Below are positions 16,561 to 61,812 of a DNA stretch of 64,000 bases, piece after piece. Each line of letters opens with the position of its first letter. Position 1 is the first letter of the stretch. The DNA lies in the NCBI GenBank assembly GCA_951406725.2, contig CATOCA020000001.1:1488001-1552000 (forward strand). The letters run 5' to 3'. The notes below the pieces were generated by a model. That model saw nothing but the letters and a program-made list of their open reading frames with translations, made no database searches and was not told the origin of the DNA. Origin of the DNA: Octopus vulgaris. Its lineage: Eukaryota. Made by a program: the position numbers and the translations under genes.

Positions 16561-18203
16561 CAGAGGCGGCAAAAATGTTCAGAACGGCATTGTTTTCGTC
16601 AAAAAAGTAGATATAATTTTTTATCAAAGTAGTTTCGTATTCTATAATTTTCACAGACAGTAAATACGATTTTATTTGTTATTGCCTGATATTTTGGTGT
16701 AATTTGAGAGGATAATACAAAAGTTATGGATGATTTAGTGATTTACTGCAAAAACCATGGCGGCCAAAATGATCAAAACAGTTGCTTTTACTCCGTGTTT
16801 TAGTATATTTAACCAGCGAACTCTAATGTTTTGAATTTGTTTACGTGACGGTTCGTTTACTAAACATTAGTAAGAATATTTGCAGTGTACTTTGTTAATA
16901 TAATGCCACTTACTCCGTTACCAATTCGTCAGCAGATTATTAAGCTTCGAAGAAAGGATAATTTAAGTATTGGATCTATTGCAAAAATTGTTAACAAGTC
17001 AAAAAGTATTGTACACGGAATTCTTAAGGTCTACGATGATTGTGGTTCGTGTGAAGCAAGAAAGTTTACAGGTAGGCCAAGAAAAACGACCAAGAGAGAA
17101 GATCGTGCTATGGTAAAGTTGGTTAAAAAGGACAGATTTAAAACTGCTGCTGCTGTTTCTCGGAAAATGAGCATTGTACTGAAGAAAACTTTATCTCGAA
17201 AAACTGTGTCTCGTCGTTTAGTTGAACATGACCTACAAGCAAGAACATCTTCAGTGAAGCCACTGATCAGCTCCAAGCATAAAAAGCGTCGTCTTACCTT
17301 TGCAACCGAACATGTGTTGTGGTCTCAAGAAAAATGACAAACGGTGCTTTTAAGTGATGAATCTAAGTTTATGTTATTTGGCTCAGATAGGAAAGGGTAC
17401 TTTCGTAGGAAAGGGTACTTTCGTAGAAAAGTAGGTGAAAAATTGTTGCCTAAATGCCTTAAGACTAGTGTTAAATTCGGTGGAGGAAGTGTCATAGTTT
17501 GGGGAATGATATCTGGAGATGGTGTGGGCCCTTTGCTGCGATTACATAGAAAGTTAAATGCAGGAGTTTATAAACAACTTGTAAAAGATCATGTCTTGCC
17601 TGTGCTGAGAAATTCAACTAAGCACCACCCATATTCATGCAGGACAATGCCCCATGTCACAAGGCTAAGGTGGTCATGAACTTCCTCAAGTCTGAAAAGG
17701 TTATTGTTATGGATTGGCCAGCTCAAAGCCCAGACCTCAATCCTATTGAAAATGTGTGGAATATTCTAGAACGTTTGAAAGCCAGAAATCCTAAAACAAC
17801 CGAGCAATTATGGAATGCCCTTCAGGAAGAATGGAATAAGATCACCCAGCAAGAAATTGAAAATTTAATTTCCTCATGCAATCGAAGATGTCAGAGTGTG
17901 ACTGAAGCTAAAGGGCTTCACACTAAATATTAAATAATTCCAGTATTCTCTGTCATTTTTGATTATTTTGTAGTTTTTTCAACCGTTCTGATCATTTTAG
18001 CCGCCATGGGTTTTGCAGTAAATCACTAAATCATCCATAACTTTTGTATTATCCTTTCCAATTACACCAAAGTCTCAGACAATAACAAATAAGCTTATAT
18101 TTATTCTCTGTGAAAATTATAGAATATGAAATAACATTGATAAAAACTTATACTTACTTTTCTGACGAAAACAATGCTGTTCTGAACATTTTGGCCGCAA
18201 CTG
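16561..18203 (+). mobile_element. Full-length Tc1 (DD34E-type) transposon with ~210 bp TIRs; transposase disrupted
   Basis: TA|CAG...CTG|TA. HTH N-terminus, GRPRKT, LSDES, QDNAP and WPAQSPDLNPIE. Stop at 17335, a frameshift, and an 18 bp internal duplication (RKGYFR x2). Confidence 0.95.
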
Positions 18204-24614: not shown

Positions 24615-25003
24615 CTGTTGGTTATCCGGACCATCTTTCTATGCTGCTTTCCTGGCTCCTGTTGCAATCAGTCTCATCTTCAACATTATCATGCCTTCTC
24701 TCGTTATCTGGCACCTTATAATGATGCAAAGTAATAAGAGATCTGAGCAGGAAAGAAGTAAAGTACGTGTTTTGGGCCTGGTTGGTTTGATGTTTTTGTT
24801 TGGACTCAAATGGGTCTTTGCATTCTTCACTGTTAGCGAAGCAGCAAAAGTGTTTGAGTATCTTTTTAGTATATTCAATACACTTCAAGGAATGTTTATC
24901 TTCATATTCTATTGTATGTACAAGAAAGATACCAGAAATATCATCGGGGAGTTTGTAAATGAAAGAAAGAGAATGAATCAGTGGAAAATTACCGCCGGCA
25001 GAA
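24615..25003 (+). CDS. Adhesion/secretin-family GPCR exon (ECL2 end, TM5-TM7, start of C-tail)
   Basis: ttctttgtag| and |gtaagt. CWL...FLAPVAISLIFN...GLMFLFGLKWVFAFF...YLFSIFNTLQGMFIFIFYC matches 7tm_2 motifs (CW, LLGLTW-like, FNxLQGxFIFxFxC). Confidence 0.92.
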
Positions 25004-25079
25004 GTAAGTGCGATAGCTTTGTTTTCATTCATTCATAATAGGTAGATAGAGACATAGAAAGATAGACAGACAAACAAAC

Positions 25080-31870: not shown

Positions 31871-32334
31871 ATTTTATAGCATAAAATATCATCAAAGACG
31901 ATTCTTGGAGGCTCTTTTTCGATTTTCACTCAAAAGTTTGTTTCTGCTGTTCTATCCTCTGTTCCATTACCAGTACTTGAACCTGGAAACATAATGAAAA
32001 ATATAAAAGTTTAAGTACATTAATTACCGGATAGTAATAATTTGTATATATATATATATATGATTATTTCTTACTATTTGAACTGTTAGAGCTATTTTCG
32101 CTATGTATCCAGTACAACCCTTAAACAAGTAAATAATATTTCCCTAAACAATAGATCAAGGTATTTCAGTTTGTGACTTATTCACGAATATACCATGAAT
32201 GACGATGCCTTTCATGTTACTTCAGCCAATTGGCAAGCGCTGATGGAAGGACGGTTCTGCTTTTAGACAAATACACTGTCAACACAAAGGTCACATCCTG
32301 TTTACATGTAGGAACACTTTCCAAAAATCTATCT

Positions 32335-33385: not shown

Positions 33386-33468
33386 TTTCATCAAGCAAAT
33401 TCATGTTGAGCAATGCCTGGAATTTGTTCAAAACTTGGGAGATATTGCGCCGCAGTTGACTTTGAACA
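33386..33468 (-). CDS. Exon F': shortened duplicated SEA part 3
   Basis: Original 5' part and acceptor are deleted. A candidate new acceptor ctctttaag| gives 83 nt, phase 2->1: VQSQLRRNISQVLNKFQALLNMNLLDE. It also has an in-frame internal deletion; the donor is intact. Confidence 0.4.
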
Positions 33469-35225: not shown

Positions 35226-35278
35226 CCAGGATATTCAACTCTGAATTTTCCAGTCACGGTTAAAAACTCATGCTCCAT
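35226..35278 (-). CDS. Exon E': duplicated SEA part 2
   Basis: Paralogue of exon E, 53 nt, cttttgcag| and |gtaagc. MEHEFLTVTGKFRVEYP(G). Confidence 0.6.
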
Positions 35279-37211: not shown

Positions 37212-37294
37212 GACTTTTGATATGTTCTCAGCAGGTTTTTTATATTCGTTGAAAGATTTTAAAATCAAACGAAATGCGAAGGATTTGGTCCAGC
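37212..37294 (-). CDS. Exon D': duplicated SEA part 1
   Basis: Paralogue of exon D, same length (83 nt), splice sites intact. (G)WTKSFAFRLILKSFNEYKKPAENISKV. Confidence 0.6.
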
Positions 37295-37959: not shown

Positions 37960-39650
37960 CCGATACCTTGGTAGCAAAAATCACAATTTGTGTAACTCTC
38001 GATGCCAAAGTTTGGGACAAGTACCTCCAGGATCTTCCAGATGTTTATTATGGCATATCTTTCCCGCCTACGCTCCAAGGAATATAGTTTTAATCTCTTG
38101 AGTCTTTCCTAGTAGCTTATATTCTGCATAGAGGCTATCTTCTTCGTGTAGCTACGCTGGATCGCCTCAAGTTCTGTGAGTAACTTGACACTGGATGGTG
38201 ACCATAACTGAGAGCAATAGTCAAAGTGGCTTAGGACAAGTGTCCTCAAGACGACCATCATGGTTTCTTGTTCTCTTGTTCTAAAGGTTCTGAGAATCCA
38301 TCCGGCCAGTCGTCTACATTTCATTGCCAATTTAGCAACATGTACACGAAAGGTTGCGTCATCACTCATGTAAATACCCAGGTCACGCACTGATTGTGCC
38401 TCTGGGATTGCAATTCCTCCAGGTCCAGTGTATTCATTGGGTATTGCATTTAGTTGTGCATGCTGATAGTATAAAGCTTGAAACTTTTCAGCATTGAACT
38501 GCATGCTATTCTTTTCAGCCCACTTGTATATTTTGTCCAGCTCACATTGCAGGCCTTTAGTGTCCTCAGGGTTCTGTATTGCCTGTGAAACTTTTGTATC
38601 ATCTGCATAACTTGTGATCGTGGCTCTCTGCGTGGCTGAGGGCATGTCTGAGAGGGCCATTATGAACAGTAGTGGTCCCAAAACAGTGCCCTGCGGAACA
38701 CCGCTCACTATTTGCGTGTTAATGGAAGTGGCCCCATTGGCTACTACCACCTGACTTCTATCTTTCAGAAAGTCATGAAGCCATTCTCCCAGTTTTCCAA
38801 CTATGTTGAGATCACGCAGTTTGTGACATATCATTCCATGATCGACTTTATCAAAGGCCTTTGCAAAGTCGAGATATATCACTTCCACATTTGAGTGGTT
38901 GAGCAGTCGTTTCAGCACCCAGTCATAGTGTTGTAGGAGCTGAGTTAAACAGCTTCTCCCTGGTCGGAAACCATGTTGGGTGTCGAGCAGCAAGTCATTT
39001 TCTTCAAGGAAGGTGATCAGTTTCCCTCTGACTATTCGTTCCATGACCTTGCTGATGTGTGAGGTCAGAGAGATAGGTCTGTAGTTCTTGGCCTCCGCTC
39101 TGCTACCTCCTTTATGAATAGGGCATATTTTACCTTCCTTCAGTTTTCTTGGAAGTTTGCCAGCTGCAAGGAAGCTCTGAAAGAGGAACTGCAGTGGTCT
39201 TGCTAGGACTCAGTTACATGCTTTTAGGAGGATTGCTGGGAATCCATCAGGGCCAGTAGCTGAGTCTGTTTTCATTTCATCTATAGCCTTTATTACATCG
39301 TCTTCCTTTATATCGATGTAATTTATCGTCGCCGCCTCTGATTTTATATCTGCAGTGGTAAAGAAGTCAGTTGGATTGGTGATTTGGAAATGCCCAAGGG
39401 GTGGAGTGAAAACACTCTTGAATTGCTCATTCAGTATTTCACTTACCCTCATTGGTTTTCCTGTGAGTGTGCCATCCTTTTCAAGGAGGGGCCCTATCCT
39501 ACAGTACACCGTAGCTGTTTCTTTGGCATACCTGTAGAAAGCTCTGGGGTTAGATTTTAAGTTGTCTATAGCCCAGGCTTCTTTGTCTGCTCTTTCCTTT
39601 TCATGGGAGAGTTGCAGACATTTTTCAATTTCCAACAGTTTTATTTTCAG
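37960..39650 (-). mobile_element. CR1/L2-group LINE RT fragment, truncated at both ends
   Basis: GPDG, NYRPISLT, QHGF..RSCLTQL, DFAKAFDKV, GVPQGTVLGPLLF, YADDTK and RDLG. Long frame with isolated stops (39210, 38109). Confidence 0.93.
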
Positions 39651-39909
39651 GCGGGACTATATTTATATTTATTTATTTATATATTTTTAATACAACAATT
39701 TTTTTTCACACGTGTATATCTTTCTGAGGAGTTTTCTGATATTAAATTCTTAATATTAATAATAATATATTATTTAAAAATGTATATAATCGCTCGTATT
39801 AAATATATAAATATTTAATAGTATTAATACTTCGATACAATAGAGCACTCAATATATATTCAGTATGTAATATTCTCATTGAATATATTTGACTAAAGAT
39901 TCATATATA

Positions 39910-42335: not shown

Positions 42336-43345
42336 TCTGTGTGTGTGTGAGTGTTAGAGAGAGAGAGAGGGAGTGTGTGTGTGTGTGGGGGGGGCATTGT
42401 AAGCGATGAATGAAATGAACATTAAATGAAAAAATCGTGTAAATGAAAGGACATAATAAACGGAATAATATAGGTTTCAAATATTGGTACGTGACCAGCA
42501 GATTTGTTGTAGGGGGTTAAGTTGATTACATTGACCCAGAGCTCAACTTGCGCTTATTTTATCGACACAGAAATTATGAAAAGCAAAGTCAATCTTGGCG
42601 GAATTTGAACTTAGAACGTAAAGACAGACGAAGTACTGCAAAGCATTTCTCCCGCTCTGCTAACGATTCTGCCAGCTTACCGCCTAATTTAAGGATTAAT
42701 AGTGATAAGTTTTCATAATGGTCTAATGAGAAATTGAAATCATCACATCACTAAATGCATATGAAAATCTATTCAATTTGACAGTGCCATAATAACATTT
42801 GAGAGAAGTAAATTGCTTATATTCTATGACAAACAGATATGTAGGGTATGTTATTGAATATTTGAAGATTCTACAACCACCGCTCCAACGTAATGTATGC
42901 AAAGAGGTATGTACCAGTAATATCCCTGTTGTTTTTCTGCTTCTCTCTCTACTCAGCCTGTCTGCAGAATGTTTACGAAAACGTGCTTTTAACGATATTA
43001 CAATAATGAACTCAACTCTCCAAAGTAATAAATTCTTTCATAACGTTTCCATAAATGAGTCAAATGATTTGCCGTTGAACGGGATGGACACATTCCTGGA
43101 GGACTCAAACGGGAGAATAGGTTGCATTACCTTTTGAAAAATCATTGTAATTACAAACACACACACACACAGGACAGTCATAATGGAACAGACATAGAAA
43201 GACATACACATACACACTCACCACCCCCACCTCCACCAGAGTGGTCGTATTTAAACAGACAGAAAGTCACTCACAAAAATTACTTCTTCTCATCCTGCTA
43301 CTTCTACTACTGTAAAAGTCATTTAAAAATAATTTGCTCGCTCAC

Positions 43346-43488
43346 CATCATCAATGCCTTTGCTCTGTTCTGCATTGTAACATTGAGACATGTCTGGTTC
43401 TTGCCAGATACCAGTAAACGGTGAACACTTTTGTGATGACAGGTTTTGACTTGATGCCATTTCTGGATGCCCCATCGTTCTGGAAGAA
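43346..43488 (-). CDS. Exon H: HRM domain part 2
   Basis: ttttttcag| and |gtgagc; 143 nt, phase 2->1. SSRTMGHPEMASSQNLSSQKCSPFTGIWQEPDMSQCYNAEQSKGIDD contains the HRM GxWxxPDxSxC motif. Confidence 0.88.
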
Positions 43489-44900
43489 CTGAAAAAATAA
43501 ATGTTAAATATTGTCAGTCGAGTTTATTCATTCTGAGGAGAATTTCATCAGTCTCAGAGGAATATAAGAAACCTTCGAACTGGTCGTGATTTGAACTCAT
43601 AATTTAGTGAAAGAAGGATAAATGGTGTCTTGCATTTGGGGGAGAAATCTATTATTTACTCCTGACCCCTATCCTCAAAACTAATGTCAAATATTTTCTA
43701 ACTAGAGTTCAGATATAAAAACAATATTCCTGCATCTGTTTTTATTTACAATAATTTCTTGTTTTTATGATTATTCAATACAAGATTAGTTGGAACGGTG
43801 TAAGTGATGCAGCATTAAGGAGCCAAGTTGTTAGTTCAAGTTGAATGGGGGAATTAGTTGCTAATATTTCGCCACCATAGACATCAGTAGCAACAGCGGC
43901 AGCAATGGATTTATGTATATTTTCCTACATATGCACAGATTTGAGTGATTCCACCAGTTGGTCTTGTCTTAAAACTAATAAAGCTCAGCCTGTGGGAGGA
44001 ACAATTTAGATGCTTAACCTGTGGAATGACGTGGTAGAAATGAGAGAAGAGAGACCGTGTTACATAGTCTGTGATGAGTGAAATCCCAGGATGACCATCA
44101 TGTACTAGCAAGATATATAGCTCTAATGTAATCATAAAATTGAATAAATAGTATTAGCCTGAATCCAACAGAATCACTGATAGATTCTATTGGCTGTATC
44201 TAGGTATGTGCTTTCTTTGCTACAATTATTTTGTGAAATTCTGGAACTTACAAGAATCTTTAAATCTTTGAATAATGCTGATTTCAAATTTTGCCACAGG
44301 GTCAGATATTTTGGGTGGGGATAGTTCGATAACATAGACCCCCGCTTACTTATTTTATCGATCCCGAAAGGGTAAAAGATAAAGTTTACCCTGGTAGCAT
44401 TTGATCTCAGAATGTAAAGTCAGAGGAAATGCTGCTAAGCATTTTGTCCGGCATGGAAACGATTCCGCCAGGTCAGCACCATAAAGCCTTGTCTAATATT
44501 GGTTTCAAATTTTGGCACAAGGCCAGCAATTTCAGGGGAAGGGTTAAGTTGTTTACACCAAACCCAGTGCTCAATTGGTATTTATTTCATCGAACCGAAA
44601 AAATTAAAGGCAAAGTCGACCTTAGGGGAATTTGAACTCAGAACATAAAAACGAATGAAATGAAAGCTTTGTATAATATTGGCGACAAAGCAAACCTAGA
44701 TAGTTAGGACAAGGCTAAATTATATCAAATAATGTATAAAATGTAAAAATGGTGGGACAAGAGATTGCAACCGATAGACGTTTAATTCTATCTTGTTAAT
44801 CTATAAACCTGTTATTTGCTCTACCAAGTAACATTCTCTCACAATAGGATGACGCTGAAAACTTCAAATTTTGAGCAGAAATAAATCAATACAAACGAAC

Positions 44901-45015
44901 CAATGCCTGGTGGCTACATTTCCATTACATGGGATCTCCGCAGTAGTTCCTATTTTTGTCATTGGCCAAGAGAAAGCTCGATTGTTAGTTGATGTTGTGC
45001 TTTCATCACAAACCA
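44901..45015 (-). CDS. Exon G: hormone-receptor (HRM) domain part 1
   Basis: ctttttcag| and |gttcgt; 115 nt, phase 1->2. VCDESTTSTNNRAFSWPMTKIGTTAEIPCNGNVATRH(C) fits the HRM C...WPxTxxGxxxxxPC...AxRxC motif. Confidence 0.88.
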
Positions 45016-45075
45016 CTGAAAAAGAAGCAAAATATGGACATGAAAGAAGCCAGTAGTAGTAGTAGTAGTAGCAGC

Positions 45076-45134
<59 letters not shown>

Positions 45135-46061
45135 CAGCAGCAGCAGCAGTAGTTAATGTTGGAAATAAATTGTTTGGACCACCTGCTGGCTGATTTGAGG
45201 ACAATGATACACGAAGTGTTGCAAACATACACGGAGAGCATATATATTTATTCAAAATAGACAGATTTCTAGATTTTCATTTAGTAGTTTGTAAAGAGAT
45301 AAATGATTTAGAAATGAATTACAATCCCTTACAACACAAGGACCCAACCAGGCTCCATGCAATTCTTGGAAGTGTAGTCTATTCTTAACTAAAATGGCGA
45401 CAATATGATTTTCTCCATATTCTTGCTCTGTTAAAATATTTGAGAAAAATTACATTAAAGTGTCCTACTTATTAAAATTCTAATTCATTATTTATGCAGC
45501 TGAAGATGGCATTACATTTAAATTGATGTAATTTTTGTATTGTTCAATTAAATTTAGCCGATTGAAACTGCATAACTACTTGAGATCCTGTAGATTATAT
45601 ATATATATATTCTTATATATATTTTTTCTTATATATTCTTAAAAAACAATAAATAAAATAGAAATAGAGGTGTGTGCATATGTATATATATATATTTTAT
45701 ATTTTCTCGAGCAATATATAACTGGTTACGGAATATGACTACTCAGAATGCTAGTCTGTTTCGCGGCCTCTAGCGTTGAATTTCGTCGATATATTGATCG
45801 CTCTTTAGACATACTAACCGGAAACGCAAAACCTAATGTATGCTAGAAATAGGTAGATGTTATATTGATTTGGCGATGGTAAAATGAAATGTATGGAAAC
45901 GAAGAGAAAATATATCATTTTTCGGCAATGGGATATGATTTGTTCCTCTCTTATATCTCTTAGACATTGTTTAAAGCGTATGAGCTGTGTGTGTATCTAT
46001 CGTTTCTTATTAAAAAATTAATATGATCACTTCGTACGAAATGAATTTTCACCGAGGAAAA

Positions 46062-46156
46062 TTATTTGCAGCATTGAATAATTTTCCTGAGTGAATTAAA
46101 GAAAGTACTGGAATTGTGTGAATTATTCTGCCCAGTAGAGTCTGCATCTTCTACTT
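46062..46156 (-). CDS. Candidate alternative terminal exon after exon F
   Basis: ctaattttgtatag| acceptor, phase 1, reads (K)VEDADSTGQNNSHNSSTFFNSLRKIIQCCK*. Nearly identical in the duplicate. Confidence 0.35.
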
Positions 46157-46472
46157 CTATACAAAATTAGAAGATGACTTTTTTGCCCTTGGTTAATTAG
46201 TATAATTAAAAAGAAACTGAGCAAAGACAAACAGTTCCGTAGGGACAAGAAACGGAAAAGCGCAAAATAAAATGCTTTTTTTTGAAATTATCCAAGCGTT
46301 GAGAAAATGTAAATAAATAGTTGTATGTATGAGAGAGAGAGAGGGAGAGAGTCTGTGTGCTTTGTATCATCTAATGTGGTTGATGATGACGACAAAGACT
46401 AAGAGGTTGGTGATTGATGAAGCTAATTATGACGGTAATGATGATTAAATTAATAAGAAACACGATACTTAC

Positions 46473-46627
46473 TTTCATCAATGAATTTCATGTGGGTTTT
46501 CTTAACTCCTAAGTTAAGCAATTCCTGGGATTTGTTCAAAACTTGGGAGATATTGCGCCGCAGTTGACTTTCAGTCATTTCGCTAAATACTGTACAGTAA
46601 ATAGCAAATATTTTATTTCTGTTTGAG
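46473..46627 (-). CDS. Exon F: SEA-like module part 3
   Basis: ttttatttcag| and |gtaagt; 155 nt, phase 2->1. SNRNKIFAIYCTVFSEMTESQLRRNISQVLNKSQELLNLGVKKTHMKFIDE. The SEA call is inferred from the strand/helix pattern and its position before HRM. Confidence 0.8.
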
Positions 46628-46705
46628 CTGAAATAAAAAATAAATACATACATGTATGTCGGTATGTATGTATGTATGTAGCTAGCTAGCTAGAAATATA
46701 CATAC

Positions 46706-46756
<51 letters not shown>

Positions 46757-47271
46757 TCGTTTAAAAGCTGCCCTGTTAATCCTTGGGCCCAACAATGACA
46801 CCATGCATTGAGTACATATTAAATTTCATGAAACATGAATATTTCTCAAGCAATGAACAATTTTCATCAAAGCAATGATATAATTTGTCGACTCGGAACT
46901 TATTGCAAAGCTTCATGATAAACAACAGTACCACCACCATCGCCACCACATCTGCCATACACACGCCATCCAGACTTCTGACGCCATCACCATCAATACT
47001 TTGCATCACTTTCCGCTCCACCACCATCACCACTGTCTTTCACATCGCTTTCTATCAGTATATTCAAATATAGCTCAGGATTGGATCATCATAGCTAAAA
47101 TAACCGCATTCAGTATGGTTGAGAACAGAATTAGTGAAGAAGGCTCGAACTACAAGCGGGTGACTAAAAGTTGGCCTTAAGAATATATTCGTCCACTAAG
47201 AAATCCACATGAAGGTCTTCACTCCCTGCATAAATCTTTGAATACACTTTATATATGTATTTATACATATA

Positions 47272-47665
47272 CAGGAGTGGCTGTGTGGTAAGTAGCTTGC
47301 TAACCAACCACATGGTTCCGGGTTCAGTCCCACTGCGTGGCATCTTGGGCTAGTGTCTTCTGCTATAGCTCCGGGCCGACCAATGCCTTGTGAGTGGATT
47401 TGGTAGACGGAAACTGAAAGAAGCCTGTCGTATATATGTATATATATGTGTGTGTGTATGTGTGTGTGTTTGTGTGTCTGTGTTTGTCTCCCAAGCATTG
47501 CTGGTGTGTTTACTCCCCGTCACTTAGCGGTTCGGCAAAAGAGACCGATAGAATAAGTACTGGGCTTACAAAGAATAAGTCCCGGGGTCGATTTGCTCGA
47601 TTAAAGGTGGTGCTCCAGCATGGCCGCAGTCAAATGACTGAAACAAGTAAAAGAGAGAAAAAGTG
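47272..47665 (+). mobile_element. Full-length tRNA-derived SINE
   Basis: A box tggctgtgtgg, B box ggttcagtccc, internal (TG)n and an (AG)-rich tail. Absent from the paralogous segment near 33700. Confidence 0.88.
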
Positions 47666-47671
47666 AGAGAG

Positions 47672-47706
<35 letters not shown>

Positions 47707-48675
47707 CAACAATTGAGGGTAAAATTAATTAATTATTAATCAATTTCACCAAGTGTTCAGTATGCAAAGGGACCATTTAAGGCGAATTCAAATTATTACA
47801 TTATATAAAAGGGCTTAGTAAAATAAATTAGCATACTGAACTCATTAGAAATAGCAGCTAAAAACTTTTTAAAGCTATTTCTAATATAAGAAAATCTCTC
47901 TCATATATAGTGTTATATATATAGTTTATATATATATATATATATATATAATTACCTGGTTGGTTTTAAAATGTGTGTTAGCTACCTTCAATATTTTATA
48001 ATCTTCACATTGCCATTTTGTGAAATCAATCACTCATTTTTATGTCATTCTCAATGATACTGAGAGGCGTGAGTTAGCCTCCACCAGCCGTAATGGAGTG
48101 AGCATTGCTGATGAGTATTAACTTCCTATAAGAAATTACCATGCTAATCTAATCCATCTGGCTTACCGTGGGGAATGTTCTCCCCACTGTCAATGCAAAC
48201 AGACCATATGTCTTTTTGTGGCTAAGGAGTTTATGACTAATATTTCTAAGAATGCTGGTTCTCACTGCACTCTTTTCACACTTAGTGACTGTGAATTATT
48301 TCCTTGTTGGTTTCAAATTGCCGATACCCACCTCAATTTATATATATACACACCCATATATGTGTGTGTATATATATGTGTGTATATATATGTGTGATGT
48401 ATATGTATGTATATATATATACATATATATACAGCAATTTAATAAATAAAACATATGCATACATACATACATATATGTACATACCTACATCTATACGTAT
48501 ATATACATACATATATGAGTACAGGATACCACAAATAAACGTAGAACACAACGAGAAACGAAGACAAAAAATCAAACAAGGAAACAGACTTTTTCCAACA
48601 ACGAAAAACAGAGTACAGGACAAACAATACAAGGAAAATTCCCTTCTTCAGCTGGCCCTGTTTCGACTCAATGCG

Positions 48676-48707
<32 letters not shown>

Positions 48708-48922
48708 AGTTCTCTCTGTATCTTTATATGGGTTTGTTTGTCCTTTGTATAATAAAACATGGATAAAACACTTAAACATTTCATTGAATGTATGAATTAG
48801 TATATTCTGGGTCACAAGTACAACACTGTTGATTATTGTGACGTATAATACATGCGATAAAATCGAATGTTTGGAACAAAAGCAAATAAATTTGAATAAA
48901 TGTGTTAGAAGCATTTGCTTAC

Positions 48923-48975
48923 CCACAGTCTTCAACTCTAAATGTTCCCGTCACGGTTGAAAGGTCATGCTCAAT
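48923..48975 (-). CDS. Exon E: SEA-like module part 2
   Basis: ctttttcag| and |gtaagc; 53 nt, phase 0->2. IEHDLSTVTGTFRVEDC(G). Supplies exactly the phase needed between D and F. Confidence 0.8.
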
Positions 48976-48987
48976 CTGAAAAAGCCG

Positions 48988-49036
<49 letters not shown>

Positions 49037-49570
49037 TAAATTCAAGAAACAAAGCTGAGTTTGATTTAAAAGCGTTGAGATGTATTGAAAAATAAAGAAA
49101 TAATTTTATTCTGAAACGCAGGATAATGCTAATGATATAACGTGAACCGCATGAAATATCCATAATTTGCAGATAAATCTGTCGTCAGCCAGCTATGTGA
49201 CTACACCTCACACCCCTGTGATTACGCTTCAAGTGCTTTACCATTAAGCTAAACTGCGCGAACGACAAATACTTCTGCAAAGTTAGGCTATATACATCTA
49301 GCTTTATAAGACGCGTAATCTGGCCGCCGACAGAGTTTTCGGCAACAGGTGAATACGTTATCCTGTTCATGCTATACTATTAGCATTATCCTGCGTTTGA
49401 GAATATAATTATATATAAATATATTAGCTTGACACTCGGTAAAGTGGGGGAAATGAGAGGGTTTTTAATGTTCCGAGCATATCTCTTTTTCAGAAAGGAA
49501 AACGAAAATGTTGAGAAGAAAAATATTACCAAAAGGAAGTGTGTGATTACATATGTTCTTATGTGTGTGT

Positions 49571-49607
<37 letters not shown>

Positions 49608-50020
49608 TGTGTGTCTGTGTCTGTGTCTGTGTGTGTCTGTGTGTAAACACAAGATTAGTGAATATTTGAGTAGGATTTTATTTACTGTCAGAATCGGAAA
49701 TTATATCACGGAATATATTAAGACAAAATAGTGGATAGAACAGTCTTTTTATTGACCAGAAAAAATTCAGTAAGTTAAAAAAGAAAGTTTTATGTAATAG
49801 TTTACTATCAGTAAATGGAGTTGATTGTCTGAATTTCATGAAACCTCACTATTTATTTGACGTTTCACATTTCTTCTATAAAATATGCATGTGTGTGTGT
49901 GTGTGTGTGTGCGTGAGAGTGTGTATGTGTATGCATGTGTGCGCATGTTCAGTGCATATGTGTGCGCGCACGCGCGTCTGTGTACGGAGAAAGAGAGAGA
50001 GAGGGCAGATATCTACTCAC

Positions 50021-50103
50021 GGCTCTTGATATGTTCTCAGCAGGGATTTTATATTCGTTGAACTTTTTAAAAATCAAACGAAATACGAGGGATTTGGTCC
50101 AGC
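50021..50103 (-). CDS. Exon D: SEA-like module part 1
   Basis: ccatag| and |gtgagt; 83 nt, phase 1->0. (G)WTKSLVFRLIFKKFNEYKIPAENISRA. Its duplicate copy is also open. Confidence 0.8.
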
Positions 50104-50513
50104 CTATGGATTGATATAGAAAATAATCGCTGCGTTTATAAATGAGACACACGTCATAGATGCACATAAAACCCACATACGTAGATAAAAATATACATTC
50201 ATAATCACATATACACTTAAAACTCTATATATATATATATATTATTCTTATTCTACCTATTATATACGTTTTTATTATTATTATTATTTGCAATTTACTT
50301 AAGCATTGACATTTAATTGTTATTTATTTTTATATTTCTATTATATGTAATTTTCTAGATGGTGTAATTTAATTGTTCATTTTGAATTGATAAAAAGTGT
50401 TTTTTTTTATTTTAATTTTTTATATATATCTTATATTGTGTGAAATTTGATTTAGTATTTCTAAATTTAATTTTTCCCTTGTAAGTTTGGATTTTATTCA
50501 CTCAAATAATAAT

Positions 50514-50583
<70 letters not shown>

Positions 50584-51067
50584 TTATCATTCCCTTTCTT
50601 CCTGTCGCTCTCTTCGTGTATCGGCTATCAATGCCTGCACATGGATGATTGGTTCCATACATCGATAGGACCTTTCTTGACTTCCTGTCCAACTCCTTTA
50701 GCTTCTCCTCTGTCCACTTCAGTTTTCCAGCGTCATTCCGAACTACTGCGACTGCGTGCGAGTTTATCGCCGAAATTATGTTCCAGGCATTCAGCTTTCT
50801 AACCAATATTTTGCTCACTCGCCAAAAGTGCTCTCTTTTACTCTTTTCCTTCATGACGTGGTGCTTGATTCCATCTGTGTGTGTGTGTGTGTGTGTGTGT
50901 GTTAGAGAGAGAGAGAGGGGGAGAGGGAGAGAGGGAGAGAGAGCATTGCAAATAGTATACACACATCAAAATATTTTCCCGTATATTAATTACTATAAAA
51001 TGTTCTTATTAACTATCAATTTGTAATAAACTTGTTGGTGTTATATTAGACAATAAATAACACTTAC

Positions 51068-51251
51068 CAATGAAATCATTCTTGTTACATAAGTGTCCGA
51101 CGCAACAACCAGTACAAGACGTGCCATTCGTCCGTTTATTGCATGTAAGGGTATTGTTTCTCATAGCTTCAACACATTTTCTGTATGTGCTGCAGGACCT
51201 TTCAGTCTTCAGTTTAGCACCGTTCATTGATATTGCGAATCGGCATACAGG
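51068..51251 (-). CDS. Exon C: second half of Ly6/uPAR-like domain
   Basis: ttattacag| and |gtaagt; 184 nt, phase 0->1. PVCRFAISMNGAKLKTERSCSTYRKC...SCTGCCVGHLCNKNDFI ends with the Ly6 CCxxxxCN motif. Confidence 0.85.
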
Positions 51252-53225
51252 CTGTAATAATAGATATGAAAATTATACACTACAACAACAATATTTATTA
51301 GTACGATTACTGCTAATTACAGCAACAACAACAGAAACAACACCACTGGGGATGTTTACCATGCAAGAAAGTTTAATCATTGCTTTAAAATACCCAAAAG
51401 CAATAAATGAAACCGTAAAGAGTTTCCGAATTGTTGAAAGTTAACAGCATAAGTAAAATTCCGTAAAAGTTATTGCTATTTAGTATTCAAAAATCATGTT
51501 TTAAATGCTTACAGTGTCCAAACCTCTCGGATCACAAGTAGATATGGACATCGGATCACGGTCTTTACAAAACCGCATCGCACTGTCACACATCGCCCAA
51601 CTTAAAATAGGTCAAATTATCCCAATAAAGATGTATCAATTCTCTAAAATTTCTTCTTACTGGAGGAATGCTCAAGAGGAATTTTTCATATAAAATTTAC
51701 GGAAAATCATGCGTACAAAACTCACCAACAAGAGAAACTAATATGCCTTTACCCAAAGATGAAAATGAAATATAATTGTCAGATTGAACTCCTCAGTCCA
51801 AGCAAATAAAACAGAAAATACATAAAACGAACACAAGAGAAACTTCGTTTTATTTTGCAAGTATATTTTATATGAAAATACGGTATATTAGTATAAAATT
51901 TGGAGAGAAAACAACCAAGGTCTTGTTAACTTAATAAGGGACATTCTGAAAGCGAAAAATATCAGAAATGGAGAAGAATATTTAAAGAAAAGAATCCATC
52001 ACGAAAACGCAATTAATAATCGCAAACACCTAACAATAATAAAAGCAATGAAAATGTAGACATTGAAGTTAGAAATAAGATTTGCATTGCCTTAGTTTGA
52101 AATTGAAACTTGTTTCTTCCAATGTTGGAAAAGTTTTAGAAAGAAAATTGGATCTCCCAAACTGAGTGAGGATGTCATGAAAAAATAACCAATGATAGTG
52201 TCCGAAGGCTGGCGTCTTCAAAAGAGCCAATGGAGTCTGTGATTGCAAATGAATGAATCATTACATAAGCTAACTCAGCTTCAAGAAAACAGAAAGGTCT
52301 GAGATCAGAACAGACAATGAAACAGGCAACAGAATGCAGCCATGCTCTTATGTCACGCTCTATTCTCCTATATTCTCGTAGATCAGTTAATGTGAAGCAT
52401 TGATCTGTGTCATTACCGGTGTCTTTTATTGTTTCTCTTGTGTTTCTTTCACCAATGTACAACTGTGTATTCAGAGATATGCCTGGCAATTTTAATTTGT
52501 GTTTTAGCTGCGTTTAATCGTATAGCTTTCACCTATTCCTGTTGAAATAATATGACCCCCATCCGTTATGTTCTGTGAAGCTTATTGTACTTCTTGATGT
52601 GAGGGCAGATTTAATCTGTTTCGAACATTTCATAATCTTTTCTATCAAACAACCACTTTTGCTATGGCCAACAGACGAAGGAGACGGTCATTTACTTCTT
52701 AACTTTTTCCTTAATCCGCTCCCTTTAATCTCTGCAAGATGGTAGGGCCACATCCAGCATGCAGTTATCCCCTCTAAGGTTAGTGGCCCGAGGTCATTCG
52801 ACAAGGAATCTTAATCCCAAGTTGACTTCTGGCCACATACATTCATACATCCTACTCTAAGGACAGCCATGTTTTGTCGGAGAAAGCTCACTTTAAGTTC
52901 GTGTGTTCGTTTCTTGAATAGGGATTCCTGGACAGGGAAGAACATTGTGTCCTTGAACAAGGCATTTCATATCACTTTGTTCCAGTCCAATCGAAGGAAA
53001 TGTATCCCAACCTAGTGATGTTCATCTATTTCTCCCTTCTGTCGTCACATCCTTGTTTTCCCATTGAGTCATGAATAAGAAGATCGACAGGGTGTGTGTA
53101 TGTCTACGCAGGCACATAAAAAAAACTAGCGAAAGCATATTACAATCTATGTGGACTTAATGGCTTTCGAGTGACGGCTGTGGATATATTTTAACGAAAA
53201 GGAAGAAAGTAATATTCTAGTTTAC

Positions 53226-53311
53226 CTCTGTTCCTGGACAGCTTGTCACTTCATTGCATATGATTCCTGAACATGTTTGACACTGTAAATTCCGTTGAAA
53301 TAACGAGTAAT
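53226..53311 (-). CDS. Exon B: first half of Ly6/uPAR-like (three-finger) domain
   Basis: ttctgtag| and |gtaaac; 86 nt, phase 1->0. YSLFQRNLQCQTCSGIICNEVTSCPGTE (LxCxxC start). In frame with exons A and C. Confidence 0.8.
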
Positions 53312-53868
53312 CTACAGAATACAAGTAAATATCTGTATTTATGAACCAAATAATGCAATGCATAGCAATAACAAGAAATATTTTCTTTCAGATGTAAAAA
53401 CAAATGTATGCGTGTTAGTATTGAAATCAATACATGTTAGACATATAAAGCAAATTATTAACAAAGACTATAAACCTATTTTCATGTTCATTTGGAAACG
53501 TTTCAATAATGTCACAAATTCAACTGAGAGAAGCATGAAAGCCACTTGTTGTCCTTTTAGTATTCTGATGTAACAAACACGTGAAAATCGTTGAACAAGT
53601 CAAATAAAGGGATTAAATTTGTAAGTTGCAACCATTGATGCAGTGGAAACTCCCTAATGAAACCTGAGAATCTCATTTAAGTTATGTTACAATGTCATAT
53701 AGTATGTGAAGAAGGCCATAATATGTGAAGTGAGCAAAACAATATTTGGATAAACAATAAAAATTATGATCACTAATATTGTGCTTTTTCCAATATACAC
53801 ACAATTATGTATGTATGTATGTATGTATGTATGTATGTATGAATGTATGTATGTATGTATGTAAGTAT

Positions 53869-53900
<32 letters not shown>

Positions 53901-53904
53901 GGTT

Positions 53905-54040
53905 TTAGTTGCCAATCCTGTAAAATACATTGTAGATATTTAGCTGGGCTAAAAAGTCACATTCGATCACAGCACCAGTAACAGTTAAGCTTCGTCCAAT
54001 GGCCATACTCGGTAACAAGGGGGCAGCCATAATAATACAT
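53905..54040 (+). mobile_element. 5'-truncated 3' end of the same RTE family as 2885-7020
   Basis: Aligns by eye with 6888-7015 (gctgggctaaaa..cacattcgatcacag..ccagtaacagtta..ggccatactcg); embedded in (TATG)n. Confidence 0.8.
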
Positions 54041-54064
54041 GTATGTATTATGTATGTATGTATG

Positions 54065-55190
54065 TCATTATTCACTGTTATTTCAAGATTTGTTGGCAAT
54101 AGAGGAGAGAGTTTCTATCCTACACTGGAATTTCAACAACATCAATATTGCCATCATTTCGGAACTTTCTACCAACATATCCATGCATAGTCTTCTGTTT
54201 ATAGATCCTCATCCGTTCATCTAATGATACGTTGCGGTAGAGTCATGCGACATCTTTGAGCATGTATTCTGTTATCAGATAAGGAATGTTGCTCAAGGAG
54301 CTGCCTTCCAAGTCATATGAATTATGCAAACTTGGTCAAAGGATGCACTTTGACATTTGTGGTTATAAGATGTTACCGAAAGGATATGATACGACATTCA
54401 AAGACATTTTGCATCGATGTTAAGCCCCTGCCGCCTTGTTTTCGTTTTAAGGAGAGGGGGTCTACTTCACCGTTTATGTGGAAATTATGTGTACTTGTCA
54501 GTATTTTCCGGGTTTTCACATAAACAGCTCGGATCTCATCAAGTGTCCAATAAAACAGCCCAAATGTCAGTATGAGTACTTGCACAGAACACACGTTGTG
54601 GGCCAATGTTTTATTGAATGCATAGATTTCTGCGGTTGAAATGTTATTTATTCAGCTGTAATGTTCTTTGTTTATACTTTAATGACACCAGTAAGTTAAT
54701 GGTACCTGTAAAAAAGCACTTGTTTTTTTACAGGTGCTGTTATGAGATATATTTTCAACCACCCCTAGATATCTGTAACATTCCTCTTCAGATATAGGGG
54801 AAACTGTCAGGTCATTGATGGCGATGTTGCTAGTCTGGTTTACATTTTTCGCCCTTTTCACAACCATATAACATTTATCCTGAACAAACGCCAACCCCAC
54901 ATTTTTTGAGAATGTTGTAACTTGGTCAAAGCTCCTTTTCATCTCATCCATATTCTTTGCATAAAGTTTTAAGTCATCCACAAAGAAACAGCGTTCAATT
55001 TTGTAATTTCTGTTTCCTTTTGAACCAATGAGATATCCTTAACATGAATGACATGAGGTTTACAGAAAGTATAAACAACATCATAACGAGGTTGTCCCCT
55101 TGGAATATGCCTTTGCGATATTGTATTCTGTCAGTGATAATAGTCACTCTTTGTGTTTAATTTCATGATGGTGGCCCACAATGAAATCAG
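54065..55190 (-). mobile_element. RLE-type non-LTR retrotransposon RT fragment
   Basis: GIFQGD-like, DDLKLYA, YRYLG and GGRGLTSMQNVFECRI segments. Confidence 0.8.
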
Positions 55191-57149
55191 GTCAGCTATG
55201 GCTTTGATTATGGCTCACTGGAAATTTAGCAAGCTGAATGGCTTCTAGCATCCATGAGTGTGTATGTATGTACGTATGTACGTATGTATGTATGTATGTA
55301 TGTACGTATGTATATGTATGTACATATGTATGTATGTATATCTGTATGTATGTATGTATGTATGTATGTATGTATGTATGTATGTATGTATGTATGTACG
55401 TATATATGTATGTATGTATGTATGTCCGTATGTGAAAATGTATGTATGTATGTGTGTGCGTATGTACATACATATACATACTGACTCATATATTTTCTCG
55501 AGTGATGTGCTTCATCGGACTCCATTTTAAGTCTGTCATTTGGAACCTTCGCTGTTTATGCCGGATTCTTCTCCGTTATAAACAATCAAGGCAGGTCTTT
55601 GGTTTCAGGATATCTTCCTACTTTCCCCCAACCAATCACAGCAGCCTTCTGAATGATCATGAGCATTGATCGTCTTCCTGGCTAAGCGCTAAATATATAC
55701 TTTACCTCTCTACTTCGTTTTCTTCCTCACTCTCCTCCGCAGCATCACTCTTACCAACCCACATCCTCACATTATTTGTCCCTCCGCCCACATTTACACT
55801 TTATACACACTTCACACGCTAGACCACAGTTTCTACCTACACATCTCACTTCGGTAGCACAGTTACTCTCTGCACACTTTATTACACACAAAGACAAACA
55901 CACACACACACACACACACACACAACTTTGTCCCATTGGATATTCTACATTTGACACACACATACAGATGCATACACACTCGTACATAGACTCATACATA
56001 TTCACGCACACTCACTCTTCAAACACATACACACACTCACACACACATACCCATACTCACAAGTGCTGCCCTCACACATTCGCTTTTGCACCCAACGTTT
56101 TGCTTTGTATCTCTAAACCACTCACTTCTCTTTCTCCCCCTCCTCCTCCCCTCCCTTTTCCTCCCACTACTGCTTGGCTCCTACTAACAGTTTACCTCCC
56201 CTATACGCACACATACCGCACCCTTCTTCTCTCCCTTTCCATTCGTGTTCACTCTTCTTCGAATAAAACCACTTTTGCTCTTCTCTCCTTCTTTCGTCAG
56301 CCATTTTCTGTCTCTCACTTAACCCATGTGTACCAACCCTTTGCTTGTACCGTTTACATTATTTGACCTTCATGAAGTGTGCCATCCTTTTCAGACATTT
56401 TACATTACTGAATGTTTTGCCTGCATTTTGCCCTTTCTTGTCTTGGTATTTGATCTTCTGAAGCAACTTTTCTCTCCTATTCGATTTTTATCCTATAGAT
56501 TCTACTGCAACTGTCCATGTCACGTCTTGCTGACTTTACAGTGTTCCCAGAGCATTGAACAGCAGTGATGGTGTCTGAATTGTGGTAACCGTCATGAATT
56601 ATCATGAATACAGGTTTCTCTCTTCCAATATTTAGATGGCTTTCAAGGCGGCAAGCTGGCAGAAACGTTAACACACCGGGCGCAAAGCTTAGCAGTATTT
56701 CGTCTGATTTTTCACGTTCTGTGTTCAAATTCCACAGAGGTCGACTTTGCTTTTATCCTTTCGGGGTAGCAGTTGCGTACTGGGGTCGATCCAATCGACT
56801 GGCCCTCTCCCCACCAAATTTCATGCCTTGTGCCTAGAGTAGCAAAGAATATTTAGATGGCTTCCAGTCCGCCATATCAGCTTTTTTCTCAGCTACAACT
56901 TTATGCTCTCTAACGCCTTTGCTTACCAATACACTACGTTTTCCTTAATATAATGGGACATAAAATCGTTATATTTAATACCGACACTCTGTATATCCAT
57001 CCATCTACCATCTTCAACGCTCATTATTCCTGGGAGGGTCATGAGGACATCTGGTGCCTCAGGTACCTCCTGCATAGGGTACTATCAGAGGCAACTGCCA
57101 ATACGCATACTGATTGAATTCTCAAGCATGACCAAATGAGACTATGGAT

Positions 57150-57460
57150 ATTTTCTAGCCATCTCTTTTTGGTCTACCTCTACATTCTCTGCTGTTTTGC
57201 ATCATTTTAAAGAATCGATCTTGCGATTTTGTCATGTGACATCCTAATCGCATGTCCGCATTACCGGAAATGTAGTGGCACAATACGGAAATGTACCGAC
57301 CTGATCTGGAGAGACTCCCTCATCTCCAAAGTACACACTGTGTCGAGTAAAGCTACTCCAGTTTTTTCGGAGGAATCCCATTTCGGCCGCTTCTGTTTGA
57401 GATCAGACTCTTTCAGTCGTTAGCCAATATTCATGACAACAGATGAGAATGGGCACGAAA
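57150..57460 (-). mobile_element. Old RTE-like LINE 3' fragment
   Basis: QTEAAEMGFLRK resembles the RTE post-RT AAEMxFLR motif. Confidence 0.45.
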
Positions 57461-58130
57461 CCCAAACTGAAGATAGTGTGTTTGGCTTTGTTACCAAGTT
57501 GTCCTCTTCTGGGGATCGAATACTGGAACTTTTTTGTATCTCGGGAGGGTCATTAAGCCAATAAAAAACACACGTACTGGTTCTATTTCACTTCATTATT
57601 CGTCACTTTGTTAACAATTTGTTAACGAATTAACTAAATGAATGTTTGATTAACCGTTTGGTTAACCTCTCAACCAGTTATGGTTGTTAGCGACATTTTG
57701 TTGTCAATCGTGACCGCTTCGATGACTTGTTTTTGTTCTATACTTATGTAGTTGTGAGAGAGAGTGTACGTGAGAGAGAGGGTTAGAGAGTATGTCTGTG
57801 TACATATGTGTGTGTACATGTGAGCGTACATTCATGTGTGCGCTGTTGTGAATGTTTGCGTATGTATGTTTGTGTATGTCTGTTTGCGCTCGCGCCCATG
57901 TGTGTGTGTGTGTGTGTGTGCTGTTGATGGTTTGTGTGATACAGTTGAATCTATAAGTTCGGTAGAGCGAAGATGTGAATGTAAAGCGTGCGAATGGTAA
58001 AACGTTTATTCCTCATATCTTTATCTATAGTTTCCCTTTCATGAGACATGATATTGCAAGCTTCAGAGAATAACCCGGATTTTCTTAGTATTAATAATAA
58101 AAGAAAAGACGAAACGAGAATTTTACTTAC

Positions 58131-58288
58131 TTTGACATTGCGAATAATCCAGTATAGGTATTCGTTTCCCTGAGCCTTCCTGACACGTGCCAGAGGCAGC
58201 CACAGTTCTGTTATAGACTTTTTGAATATACTTAACGAAGGCTGGCAAGTGACATCCACACTTCATAAGGTTATTGTTTCGGAGGTAA
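58131..58288 (-). CDS. Adhesion-GPCR-like gene, exon A: last LRR plus LRR C-terminal cap
   Basis: tattacag| acceptor and |gtaagt donor; 158 nt, phase 2->1. Reads YLRNNNLMKCGCHLPAFVKYIQKVYNRTVAASGTCQEGSGKRIPILDYSQCQ, matching the LRRCT NxxxCxCxL...C...C pattern. Confidence 0.8.
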
Positions 58289-61092: not shown

Positions 61093-61094
61093 GA

Positions 61095-61812
61095 CCCATC
61101 AATGGCTAATGGCCTCTGGCTTAAAATCTGAAACAGAGGGGTTTATCATAGCAGCTCAAGATCAATGCCTACCAACAAGAAACTACCAGGCCAACATATT
61201 AAAGAACGGCAGTAGCCCAACATGTCGTGTATGCCGACAACAAAATGAAACCATTGATCATGTTGTCTCCAAATGCAGTCTTCTAGCGCCTACAGAGTAC
61301 CTCAACAGGCATGATAAAGCTGCACAATATATTCATTGGGTAATGTGCAAAAACCTGGATTTGCCCCATGAAAAAAACTGGTGGGAACTCAAACAACCCC
61401 CAGTGCTTGAAAATGACCACATTTCACTCCTCTGGAACTTCCCCATTCAAACTGACAGGAAGATAGATGCAAATAGGCCAGACATCATATTGAAAGACTT
61501 CAGATAAAGAACATGCCTCCTCATTGATATGACTCTCCCAATCGATATAAACGTATCTGTCAAGACCTACCAAAAACTGAGCAAATATAAAGATCTTGAA
61601 ATAGAAATCAGCAAAATGTGGAAACTGAAGACTAAAACAATACCTGTTGTCATAGGTGCCCTGGGAATGATAGCGAAAGGGACTGATTGCTACCTAACTC
61701 AGATACCAGGAAACCCCAAAATGGCAGAAGTTCAAAAGATAGTGCTCATGGGAACTGCTCATATCCTACGCAAAATACTCTCTATGTAATCCCAAGGTTT
61801 AAAACAAACTTT

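What the first reader, a model, noticed from the sequence alone, without database searches (positions are those of the whole stretch)
43346..58288. Hidden eight-exon ectodomain: LRR cap + Ly6/three-finger + SEA-like + HRM
Seen: eight short minus-strand exons with canonical AG/GT ends whose phases chain without a break (2-1-0-1-0-2-1-2-1) into one open frame of ~325 aa. The ORF track misses or mis-frames several of them. Known: HRM, SEA and LRR occur in adhesion-GPCR ectodomains, and octopus genomes have expanded GPCR repertoires. A Ly6/uPAR three-finger module is not part of the vertebrate aGPCR architectures I know. Inference: a mollusc/cephalopod-type aGPCR architecture with an added three-finger ligand-binding module.
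Basis: partly seen in the sequence, partly recalled or inferred. Interest (0 to 1): 0.75.

Follow-up and report, generated by a model that had tools for sequence, protein, structure and literature searches.

The report
Octopus receptor head without membrane anchor
These eight exons are the stalk of an octopus gene that descends from a known cell-surface receptor family but has lost its membrane and signalling half, so it likely makes a secreted protein whose fast-changing leucine-rich head, rather than the three-finger module, is predicted to do the recognising.

Summary
The LRR cap, Ly6/uPAR (LU), SEA and HRM domains are supported. The family is the octopus-expanded adhesion GPCR group 3 of Ritschard 2019. 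But the LU module is no cephalopod addition: the same receptor occurs in other molluscs, a brachiopod, nemertean, annelid and echinoderms, and LU-bearing GPCRs are in print (PMC9410279, PMC13719153). 14 of 65 LU-exon hits in the genome show this layout, and RNA-type contigs show the splicing for the subfamily. The LU exon is nearly constant; the upstream LRR exons vary on their binding face. Selection on the young copies is ambiguous. Earlier scan notes on other loci had already reached the family and the secreted reading.

The parts
58131..58288 (-). Exon A: last LRR strand and LRR C-terminal cap
   Evidence: model residues 1-127 of paralogue P0019 match Nogo receptor 2 and hagfish VLR at Z 15.7 and 14.8
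53226..53311 (-). Exon B: first third of the LU (three-finger) domain, 4 Cys
51068..51251 (-). Exon C: rest of the LU domain, 8 Cys, ending CC-x4-CN
   Evidence: 66 genome matches
50021..50103 (-). Exon D: SEA domain, part 1
48923..48975 (-). Exon E: SEA domain, part 2
46473..46627 (-). Exon F: SEA domain, part 3
44901..45015 (-). Exon G: HRM domain, first half
43346..43488 (-). Exon H: HRM domain, second half, with a 3' end and intron shared by 16 genome copies
37212..37294 (-).
   Evidence: a loose contig end at exon H matches its bases 2-12
35226..35278 (-). Exon E2: duplicate of exon E
33386..33468 (-). Exon F2: shortened duplicate of exon F with a new acceptor; the second SEA is incomplete
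   Evidence: pLDDT mostly under 50-60 for this region in the paralogue model
31930..31982 (-). Exon T: last coding exon of the full-length receptors (cytoplasmic tail, ends ETNF-stop), reached in frame
24616..25005 (+). Orphan TM5-7 exon of an adhesion GPCR on the opposite strand: remnant of a tail-to-tail neighbour gene, not part of this gene

Best explanation
This is one of a young set of octopus genes that keep the whole outer part of an LRR-LU-SEA-HRM adhesion GPCR but lack its GAIN and 7TM exons, and it likely encodes a secreted, glycosylated recognition protein. Shown: a 26-exon open frame of 791 aa (signal-like N-terminus and LRR N-cap, 12 variable one-LRR exons, a terminal LRR, cap, LU, SEA, HRM, partial SEA copy, native tail), no hydrophobic segment after the N-terminus, and no GPS or 7TM exon downstream on its strand. 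Inferred origin: LU, SEA and HRM are each bounded by phase-1 introns, as is the tail exon, so a duplicated SEA block replaced the GAIN-7TM block by recombination in introns and kept the frame down to the normal stop; segmental duplication then spread the gene, carrying a piece of its tail-to-tail neighbour. Inferred function: the LRR concave face binds variable targets, the LU-SEA-HRM part is a constant stalk, and the soluble protein would compete with or complement the membrane-bound paralogues for the same class of ligand (decoy or opsonin-like role). The ligand is unknown.
For: Open 791-aa model, highest 19-residue hydropathy after residue 40 is 0.82, 17 N-glycosylation sequons. No GAIN/GPS/7TM tblastn match on the minus strand in 264 kb. 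14 of 65 LU-exon hits reach a tail exon before any GPS or TM5-7 match, 11 of them among the 21 hits at least 88% identical to the window. 16 of 40 listed exon-H matches share the derived 3' end and intron. 5 of 6 other copies read from exon A to T are open with AG/GT ends (in one the script mapped D2 onto D). Exons B-H have 41 of 819 variable sites against 139 of 1325 in flanking introns in 7 copies (P = 6e-6), and 3 indels against 33. G-H splice in 3 of 4 runs; a loose end at H in run X7 equals the start of a D-type exon. The same ending occurs in O. vulgaris and O. sinensis models. An O. bimaculoides model (P0214) also has HRM, a second SEA and no 7TM, with its two SEAs 74% alike but 43-49% like those of O. 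vulgaris/sinensis, suggesting a separate origin. LRR exons differ at 14.6% of sites against 3.4-4.7% in their flanks, concentrated at codons 1, 3, 4 and 23.
Against: Among the few exon changes in young copies N/S is about 1 (exons B-H: 35 of 636 non-synonymous, 9 of 168 synonymous sites; exon C 0.93 in 20 copies), so protein-level purifying selection is not shown. The copies were picked by exon similarity, which biases the exon-intron contrast. One of six copies is frameshifted, one LRR unit in this gene is broken, and the second SEA does not fold in the model. In runs X7 and X11 all depth at place 44926 carries a paralogue's letter, so expression is shown for the subfamily; only X2 has a share (about a third) with the window's letter. 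The runs are RNA by guess. The H-to-D2 evidence is 11 letters in 2 contigs of one run and cannot tell D2 from D. The signal peptide was judged by hydropathy only. No protein, ligand or tissue evidence.
Confidence: 0.62

Rival explanations
1. The 7TM-less copies are transcribed by-products of a duplication-prone region, in early decay and with no function of their own.
For: N/S about 1 in young copies; a frameshifted copy; orphan tail and TM exons and chimeric models fused to ankyrin or Death-domain sequence; a useless cytoplasmic tail and a broken SEA at the end.
Against: Exons vary half as much as flanking introns and have 3 indels against 33; 6 of 7 copies open; retained in two species and possibly arisen twice; face-restricted LRR change.
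Confidence: 0.22
2. The soluble ectodomain is the outer half of a split receptor: it docks, through HRM or LU, on a full-length paralogue or another membrane protein and signals through it.
For: LU proteins such as Lynx and LYPD6 modulate membrane receptors (PMC11595613 passages); the stalk is the conserved part; 39 of 65 LU-exon hits belong to GPS+7TM genes that could be partners.
Against: GAIN, the part that holds the two halves of an adhesion GPCR together (recalled), is missing; no binding evidence.
Confidence: 0.08
3. One reading: these exons are the ectodomain of an intact adhesion GPCR whose LU module is the added ligand-binding part; the 7TM half would be misassembled or lie farther away.
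For: True for paralogues such as P0033 and P0030; a TM5-7 exon lies in the window; tandem LU copies occur in some models.
Against: The gene closes with its own tail exon and stop; the TM exon is on the other strand and is collinear with a neighbour gene on C30; the LU is ancient, identical at DNA level in 8 other copies and absent from model P0212.
Confidence: 0.05
4. Many of the near-identical copies are assembly artefacts (uncollapsed haplotypes), so the young expansion is much smaller.
For: 11 of the 21 closest LU-exon hits lie on one 12-Mb contig and flanks differ by only 1-3%.
Against: More than two versions with different intron lengths and exon indels; copies on C1, C2, C5, C14 and C30; several models in O. 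sinensis.
Confidence: 0.03

Closest known systems
Octopus-specific adhesion GPCR expansion, group 3 (Ritschard et al. 2019, PMC6408891)
   Same: Same family: A0A0L8HDZ7, listed in group 3 in its Table S2, is P0192, in one 90% cluster with P0037, which groups with the close paralogues at support 1.0. The paper notes LRRs in 5 of 22 sequences.
   Different: The passages read do not mention LU, SEA or 7TM-less copies; its Table S3 holds one SSF57302 hit (snake-toxin-like superfamily, name recalled) in a group 3 protein. The study collected by 7TM signature, so 7TM-less genes could not enter.
LU-domain GPCRs of invertebrates: starfish LyAr2/LyAp2 (PMC9410279, PMC11595613) and mollusc/arthropod cases (PMC13719153)
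   Same: An LU domain in the ectodomain of an adhesion-type GPCR; the starfish LU resembles Lynx2/LYPD1 and LYPD6, as the profile here does.
   Different: Those are full receptors. The 2026 survey lists 7TM+LU only for echinoderms, arthropods and molluscs; here brachiopod, nemertean and annelid cases also appear. Its Fig. 2 legend names LRR and GPS domains; the figure and supplements were not visible, so the LRR-LU-GPS-7TM layout may be drawn there.
Vertebrate ADGRG6/GPR126 (PDB 6V55; Leon et al. 2020, PMC6954182)
   Same: SEA-HormR-GAIN-7TM core; best Foldseek hit of the model (E 3.1e-5) and best PDB hit of the family profile (E 7.5e-151).
   Different: CUB-PTX instead of LRR-LU at the tip; the window copy lacks GAIN-7TM and shows neither the GSVVV nor the (R/K)-X-K-R cleavage motif in the SEA loop.
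Secreted variable LRR recognition proteins (lamprey VLRB, mosquito LRIM1/APL1; roles recalled)
   Same: Soluble LRR solenoid with a variable concave face; VLR and APL1B chains are among the LRR fold matches.
   Different: Each LRR here is a normal germline exon; no rearrangement was tested or is needed; the stalk comes from an adhesion GPCR.

Membership tests
Adhesion GPCR (this gene copy) | Seven-transmembrane domain (7tm_2) | tested here: not met
   No same-strand match in 264 kb; nearest same-strand TM5-7 exon is 555 kb downstream; no hydrophobic segment in the model
Adhesion GPCR (this gene copy) | GAIN domain with GPS motif | tested here: not met
   No tblastn match; none of 63 GPS matches lies between exon C and exon T
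Adhesion GPCR (this gene copy) | Multi-domain ectodomain homologous to that of full-length members | tested here: met
   66-68% identity to P0033 and P0030 over the shared part; these carry GPS and 7tm_2
Octopus group 3 adhesion GPCRs (Ritschard 2019) | Paralogues fall in the clade of a listed group 3 gene | tested here: met
   (FastTree on GPS+7TM, 124 sequences, midpoint root)
Ly6/uPAR (LU) domain | Conserved Cys pattern ending CC-x4-CN | tested here: met
   10 invariant and 2 nearly invariant Cys in 19 homologues; all 12 align with human LYPD1
Ly6/uPAR (LU) domain | Sequence-profile match to solved LU domains | tested here: met
   LYPD1 E 1.3e-9, LYPD6 3.1e-8, SLURP1 5.6e-6; all 21 PDB hits to E 10 are three-finger proteins by name. 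Single-sequence Pfam hits stay below cut-off
Ly6/uPAR (LU) domain | Three-finger fold by structural superposition | tested here: inconclusive
   The model is confident there (block pLDDT 72-92) with beta hairpins and a helix in loop III, but both fold searches were filled by LRR and Gpr126 hits
SEA domain | Ferredoxin-like fold directly before HormR | tested here: met
   beta-alpha-beta-beta-alpha-beta, block pLDDT 75-94; 6V55 match; Pfam SEA E 5.5e-5 in the Haliotis homologue
SEA domain | Cleavage motif (GSVVV or furin site) in the beta2-beta3 loop, present in some SEA domains | tested here: not met
   The loop reads G-S-N-R-N; motifs from PMC6954182
HRM (PF02793) | Cys/Trp pattern and profile match | tested here: met
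   E about 1e-3, below cut-off, in three close paralogues; above cut-off in the Lamellibrachia homologue; confident model
VLR-type rearranging receptor | Somatic assembly of LRR cassettes | not tested
   The cassettes are ordinary AG/GT exons in one open frame
Secreted protein | Protein found outside the cell | not testable with these tools
   Only predicted; the mucus proteome paper names an adhesion GPCR G6 protein without saying which form

The most novel reading that the evidence does not exclude
Octopuses have, more than once, turned an adhesion GPCR into a family of secreted antibody-like proteins: a germline-diversified LRR head on a constant LU-SEA-HRM stalk, working beside some 35 membrane receptors of the same design as a paired soluble/signalling recognition system, for example in immunity or self-recognition.
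Probability: 0.3. Interest if true: 0.78.

Novelty: new variant of a known kind. Interest (0 to 1): 0.5.

Why it matters
The feature that was flagged, a three-finger module in an adhesion GPCR, is real but old and already reported. What is left is a clean case of a receptor ectodomain set free by exon shuffling and then amplified. If the proteins are made, octopus has a large paired set of membrane and soluble LRR proteins with a variable head, a direct handle on how cephalopods recognise pathogens or self. GPCR surveys that start from the 7TM miss these genes, and automatic annotation calls them ADGRG6-like, slit-like or TLR5. The wider taxon list also favours one ancient LRR-LU receptor over independent gains.

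Tried and rejected
Exon hunting by splice motifs alone gave wrong candidates (45427 and 48287 regions); homologues settled the model. The + strand TM5-7 exon was considered as this gene's missing half and rejected. A first fold with a 10-sequence alignment failed for the LU (mean pLDDT 50) and its Foldseek search gave no hit at E 0.001, only ferredoxin-like folds. The wide structural search tested only the LRR part. The ESM Atlas hits for the LU scored 0.75-0.82, a lead only, with the named ones in LU-type families. The run search listed no holder on record as RNA; run X1 looked like DNA (flat cover, no joint). dN/dS did not separate function from decay in young copies; the D2-F2 counts are unreliable because D2 was mapped onto D in two copies. 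Supplements of PMC13719153 and PMC11431876 could not be read and may bear on novelty and secretion. Paper searches listed no paper whose title or abstract start describes 7TM-less octopus paralogues; the library is incomplete. No complex was predicted, as no binding partner is claimed.
Full report
Observation. Each has an AG acceptor and GT donor, the phases are 2-1-0-1-0-2-1-2-1 and the joined frame is 325 aa without a stop. A search with exon C found 31 proteins among 31 candidates, all from Octopus vulgaris, O. sinensis or O. bimaculoides, several 100% identical over the exon. Their tblastn matches fall on exons A-H in order. On contigs of four runs (RNA by guess, four studies), the G-H intron is skipped with GT..AG ends in three; the fourth looks like DNA.

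Domains. A profile from 19 homologous LU stretches has 10 invariant and 2 nearly invariant cysteines and matches human LYPD1 at E 1.3e-9 with all 12 aligned, then LYPD6 and SLURP1; all 21 PDB hits to E 10 are three-finger proteins by name. AlphaFold on a 41-sequence alignment headed by the close paralogue P0019 gave mean pLDDT 78.6, with confident LRR, LU, SEA and HRM units. The best Foldseek hit is the zebrafish Gpr126 ectodomain (E 3.1e-5), whose SEA-HormR-GAIN order is described in PMC6954182 (passages). A structural superposition of the LU alone was not obtained.

The architecture is old. A search of 1.84 billion representatives with full-length paralogue P0030 listed its best 150 hits. 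An LU profile found the domain in many of them. I looked up 20 of them, chosen for N-terminal coverage or an LU hit: Aplysia, Physella, Nucella, Haliotis, Gigantopelta, Saccostrea, Dreissena, Ylistrum, Liolophura, Argonauta, O. bimaculoides, Lingula, Tubulanus (2), Lamellibrachia, Owenia, Acanthaster, Diadema, Lytechinus and one unnamed. 18 of these 20 also have LRRs, all 20 a GPS and 19 a 7tm_2 match. In a tree of 124 GPS+7TM regions the molluscan LU receptors group together and the octopus paralogues form one clade (support 1.0) next to the chiton gene (FastTree, midpoint root, weak deep nodes). LU-bearing adhesion GPCRs are in print for starfish (PMC9410279 and PMC11595613, passages) and for molluscs and arthropods (PMC13719153, passages and second half of Results; figures and supplements not seen). 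The octopus family is group 3 of Ritschard et al. 2019 (PMC6408891; part 2 of 6, passages, supplement rows).

After exon H the frame goes into copies of the SEA exons (D2, E2, a shortened F2) and then into the last exon of the full receptors, ending at the normal stop. With 100 kb fetched on each side, no GAIN, GPS or 7TM exon appears on this strand. Upstream lie a signal/LRR N-cap exon, 12 variable LRR exons and a terminal LRR exon. The 26-exon model is 791 aa, open, with 17 sequons and no hydrophobic stretch after the N-terminus. A loose contig end at exon H in run X7 equals bases 2-12 of D2 (and of D), the only two places in the window with that word. The F2-T intron resembles the gene's own F-G intron for about 950 bases and a full receptor's last intron only near T. 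All these introns are phase 1, which explains why the swap kept the frame (inference). The TM5-7 exon at 24616-25005 is on the other strand and comes from a tail-to-tail neighbour copied along.

How common. The genome gave 66 exon-C, 82 TM5-7, 63 GPS and 42 tail-exon matches (lower bounds, the tail search scored 40 of 51 candidates and reaches only close copies). I dropped 1, 23 (19 distant C9 rows, 2 split pieces, 2 weak rows), 0 and 2 rows. Of 65 exon-C hits, 39 have GPS and TM5-7 within 100 kb downstream, 14 reach a tail exon first, 5 have GPS only and 7 nothing. The tail-first class is 11 of 21 hits at least 88% identical to the window and 3 of 44 below. Hits are exons, not genes; three on C30 are one gene. 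Sixteen of 40 listed exon-H matches share the derived 3' end and intron, pointing to one origin. The same ending is in O. vulgaris and O. sinensis models; two short O. bimaculoides models keep the normal HRM-GAIN junction, while P0214 looks like a separate loss.

Which part varies. The 12 LRR exons differ at 14.6% of sites, their flanks at 3.4-4.7%, and the change sits at codons 1, 3, 4 and 23, the x positions around the LxxLxLxxN strand (face assignment recalled); pN is 0.41 against pS 0.23 in six face codons and 0.05 against 0.15 in the rest. Exon C is identical at DNA level in 8 of 45 other copies fetched, and dN/dS is 0.50 among 26 older copies. LU number varies from 0 to 3. The LU is therefore better read as part of a constant stalk. 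I ran the LRR test after earlier scan notes on other loci reported it; those notes had also reached the family and the secreted reading, which I had written down before opening them.

Function or decay. For: 6 of 7 copies read from A to T are open; exons B-H have 41 of 819 variable sites against 139 of 1325 in introns and 3 indels against 33; the form persists in two species; spliced contigs exist. Against: N/S is about 1 among the few changes, copies were chosen by exon similarity, one is frameshifted, the second SEA is incomplete, and most RNA depth carries paralogue letters. A skin-mucus proteome names an adhesion GPCR G6 protein (PMC11431876, two passages) but the form is unknown.

Verdict. 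A real gene, correctly read by the first stage at exon level. The three-finger module is an ancient and published feature. The locus is a membrane-less, likely secreted derivative of octopus group 3 adhesion GPCRs; five paper searches listed nothing on such derivatives. New variant of a known kind, interest 0.5; mechanism (soluble LRR recognition protein or decoy) inferred at about 0.6, ligand unknown.

Noticed in passing
window 24616-25005 (+): Intact but orphan TM5-7 exon; window 24.3-31.4 kb is collinear (86-95%) with tail-to-tail receptor pairs on C30, minus the neighbour's tail exon. Opposite-strand TM exons also lie behind the copies on C1 and C14.
   Followed up: yes
G000:C31 about 1,557,700-1,598,400 (window coordinates 69.7-110.4 kb): Front of the same gene: signal/LRR N-cap exon, 12 variable 72-nt LRR exons, one broken LRR unit near 91.0 kb and a terminal LRR exon.
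   Followed up: yes
G000:C30 19.58-19.60 Mb; proteins P0004, P0006, P0212: LU copy number varies from 0 to 3 between paralogues; the two LU exons form a phase 1-1 cassette.
   Followed up: partly
protein P0214 (O. bimaculoides, named toll-like receptor 5): Model with LRRs, LU, SEA, HRM, a complete second SEA and no 7TM or TIR; looks like an independent membrane-less form, model not checked.
   Followed up: partly
proteins P0164, P0211: Pieces of this family are joined to ankyrin-repeat or Death-domain-labelled sequence in gene models; chimeras or annotation errors.
   Followed up: no
G000:C9 28.42-28.88 Mb: 19 distant class B 7TM matches in long open frames (most 400-700 aa), an apparently intronless tandem GPCR array.
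   Followed up: no
window 43320-43500 and 44880-45000, run X7: Summed contig depth over exons G and H is 13,000-48,000 against about 20-40 in most of the intron, hundreds in X2 and X11; the subfamily seems very abundant in that run, though contig depth is a poor measure.
   Followed up: no
window 38112-39656 (-), 4857-6036 (+), 61094-61786 (+), 16864-17676 (+): Reverse-transcriptase-like frames (one inside the H-D2 intron) and a Tc1/mariner-like transposase remnant, judged by eye from translations.
   Followed up: no
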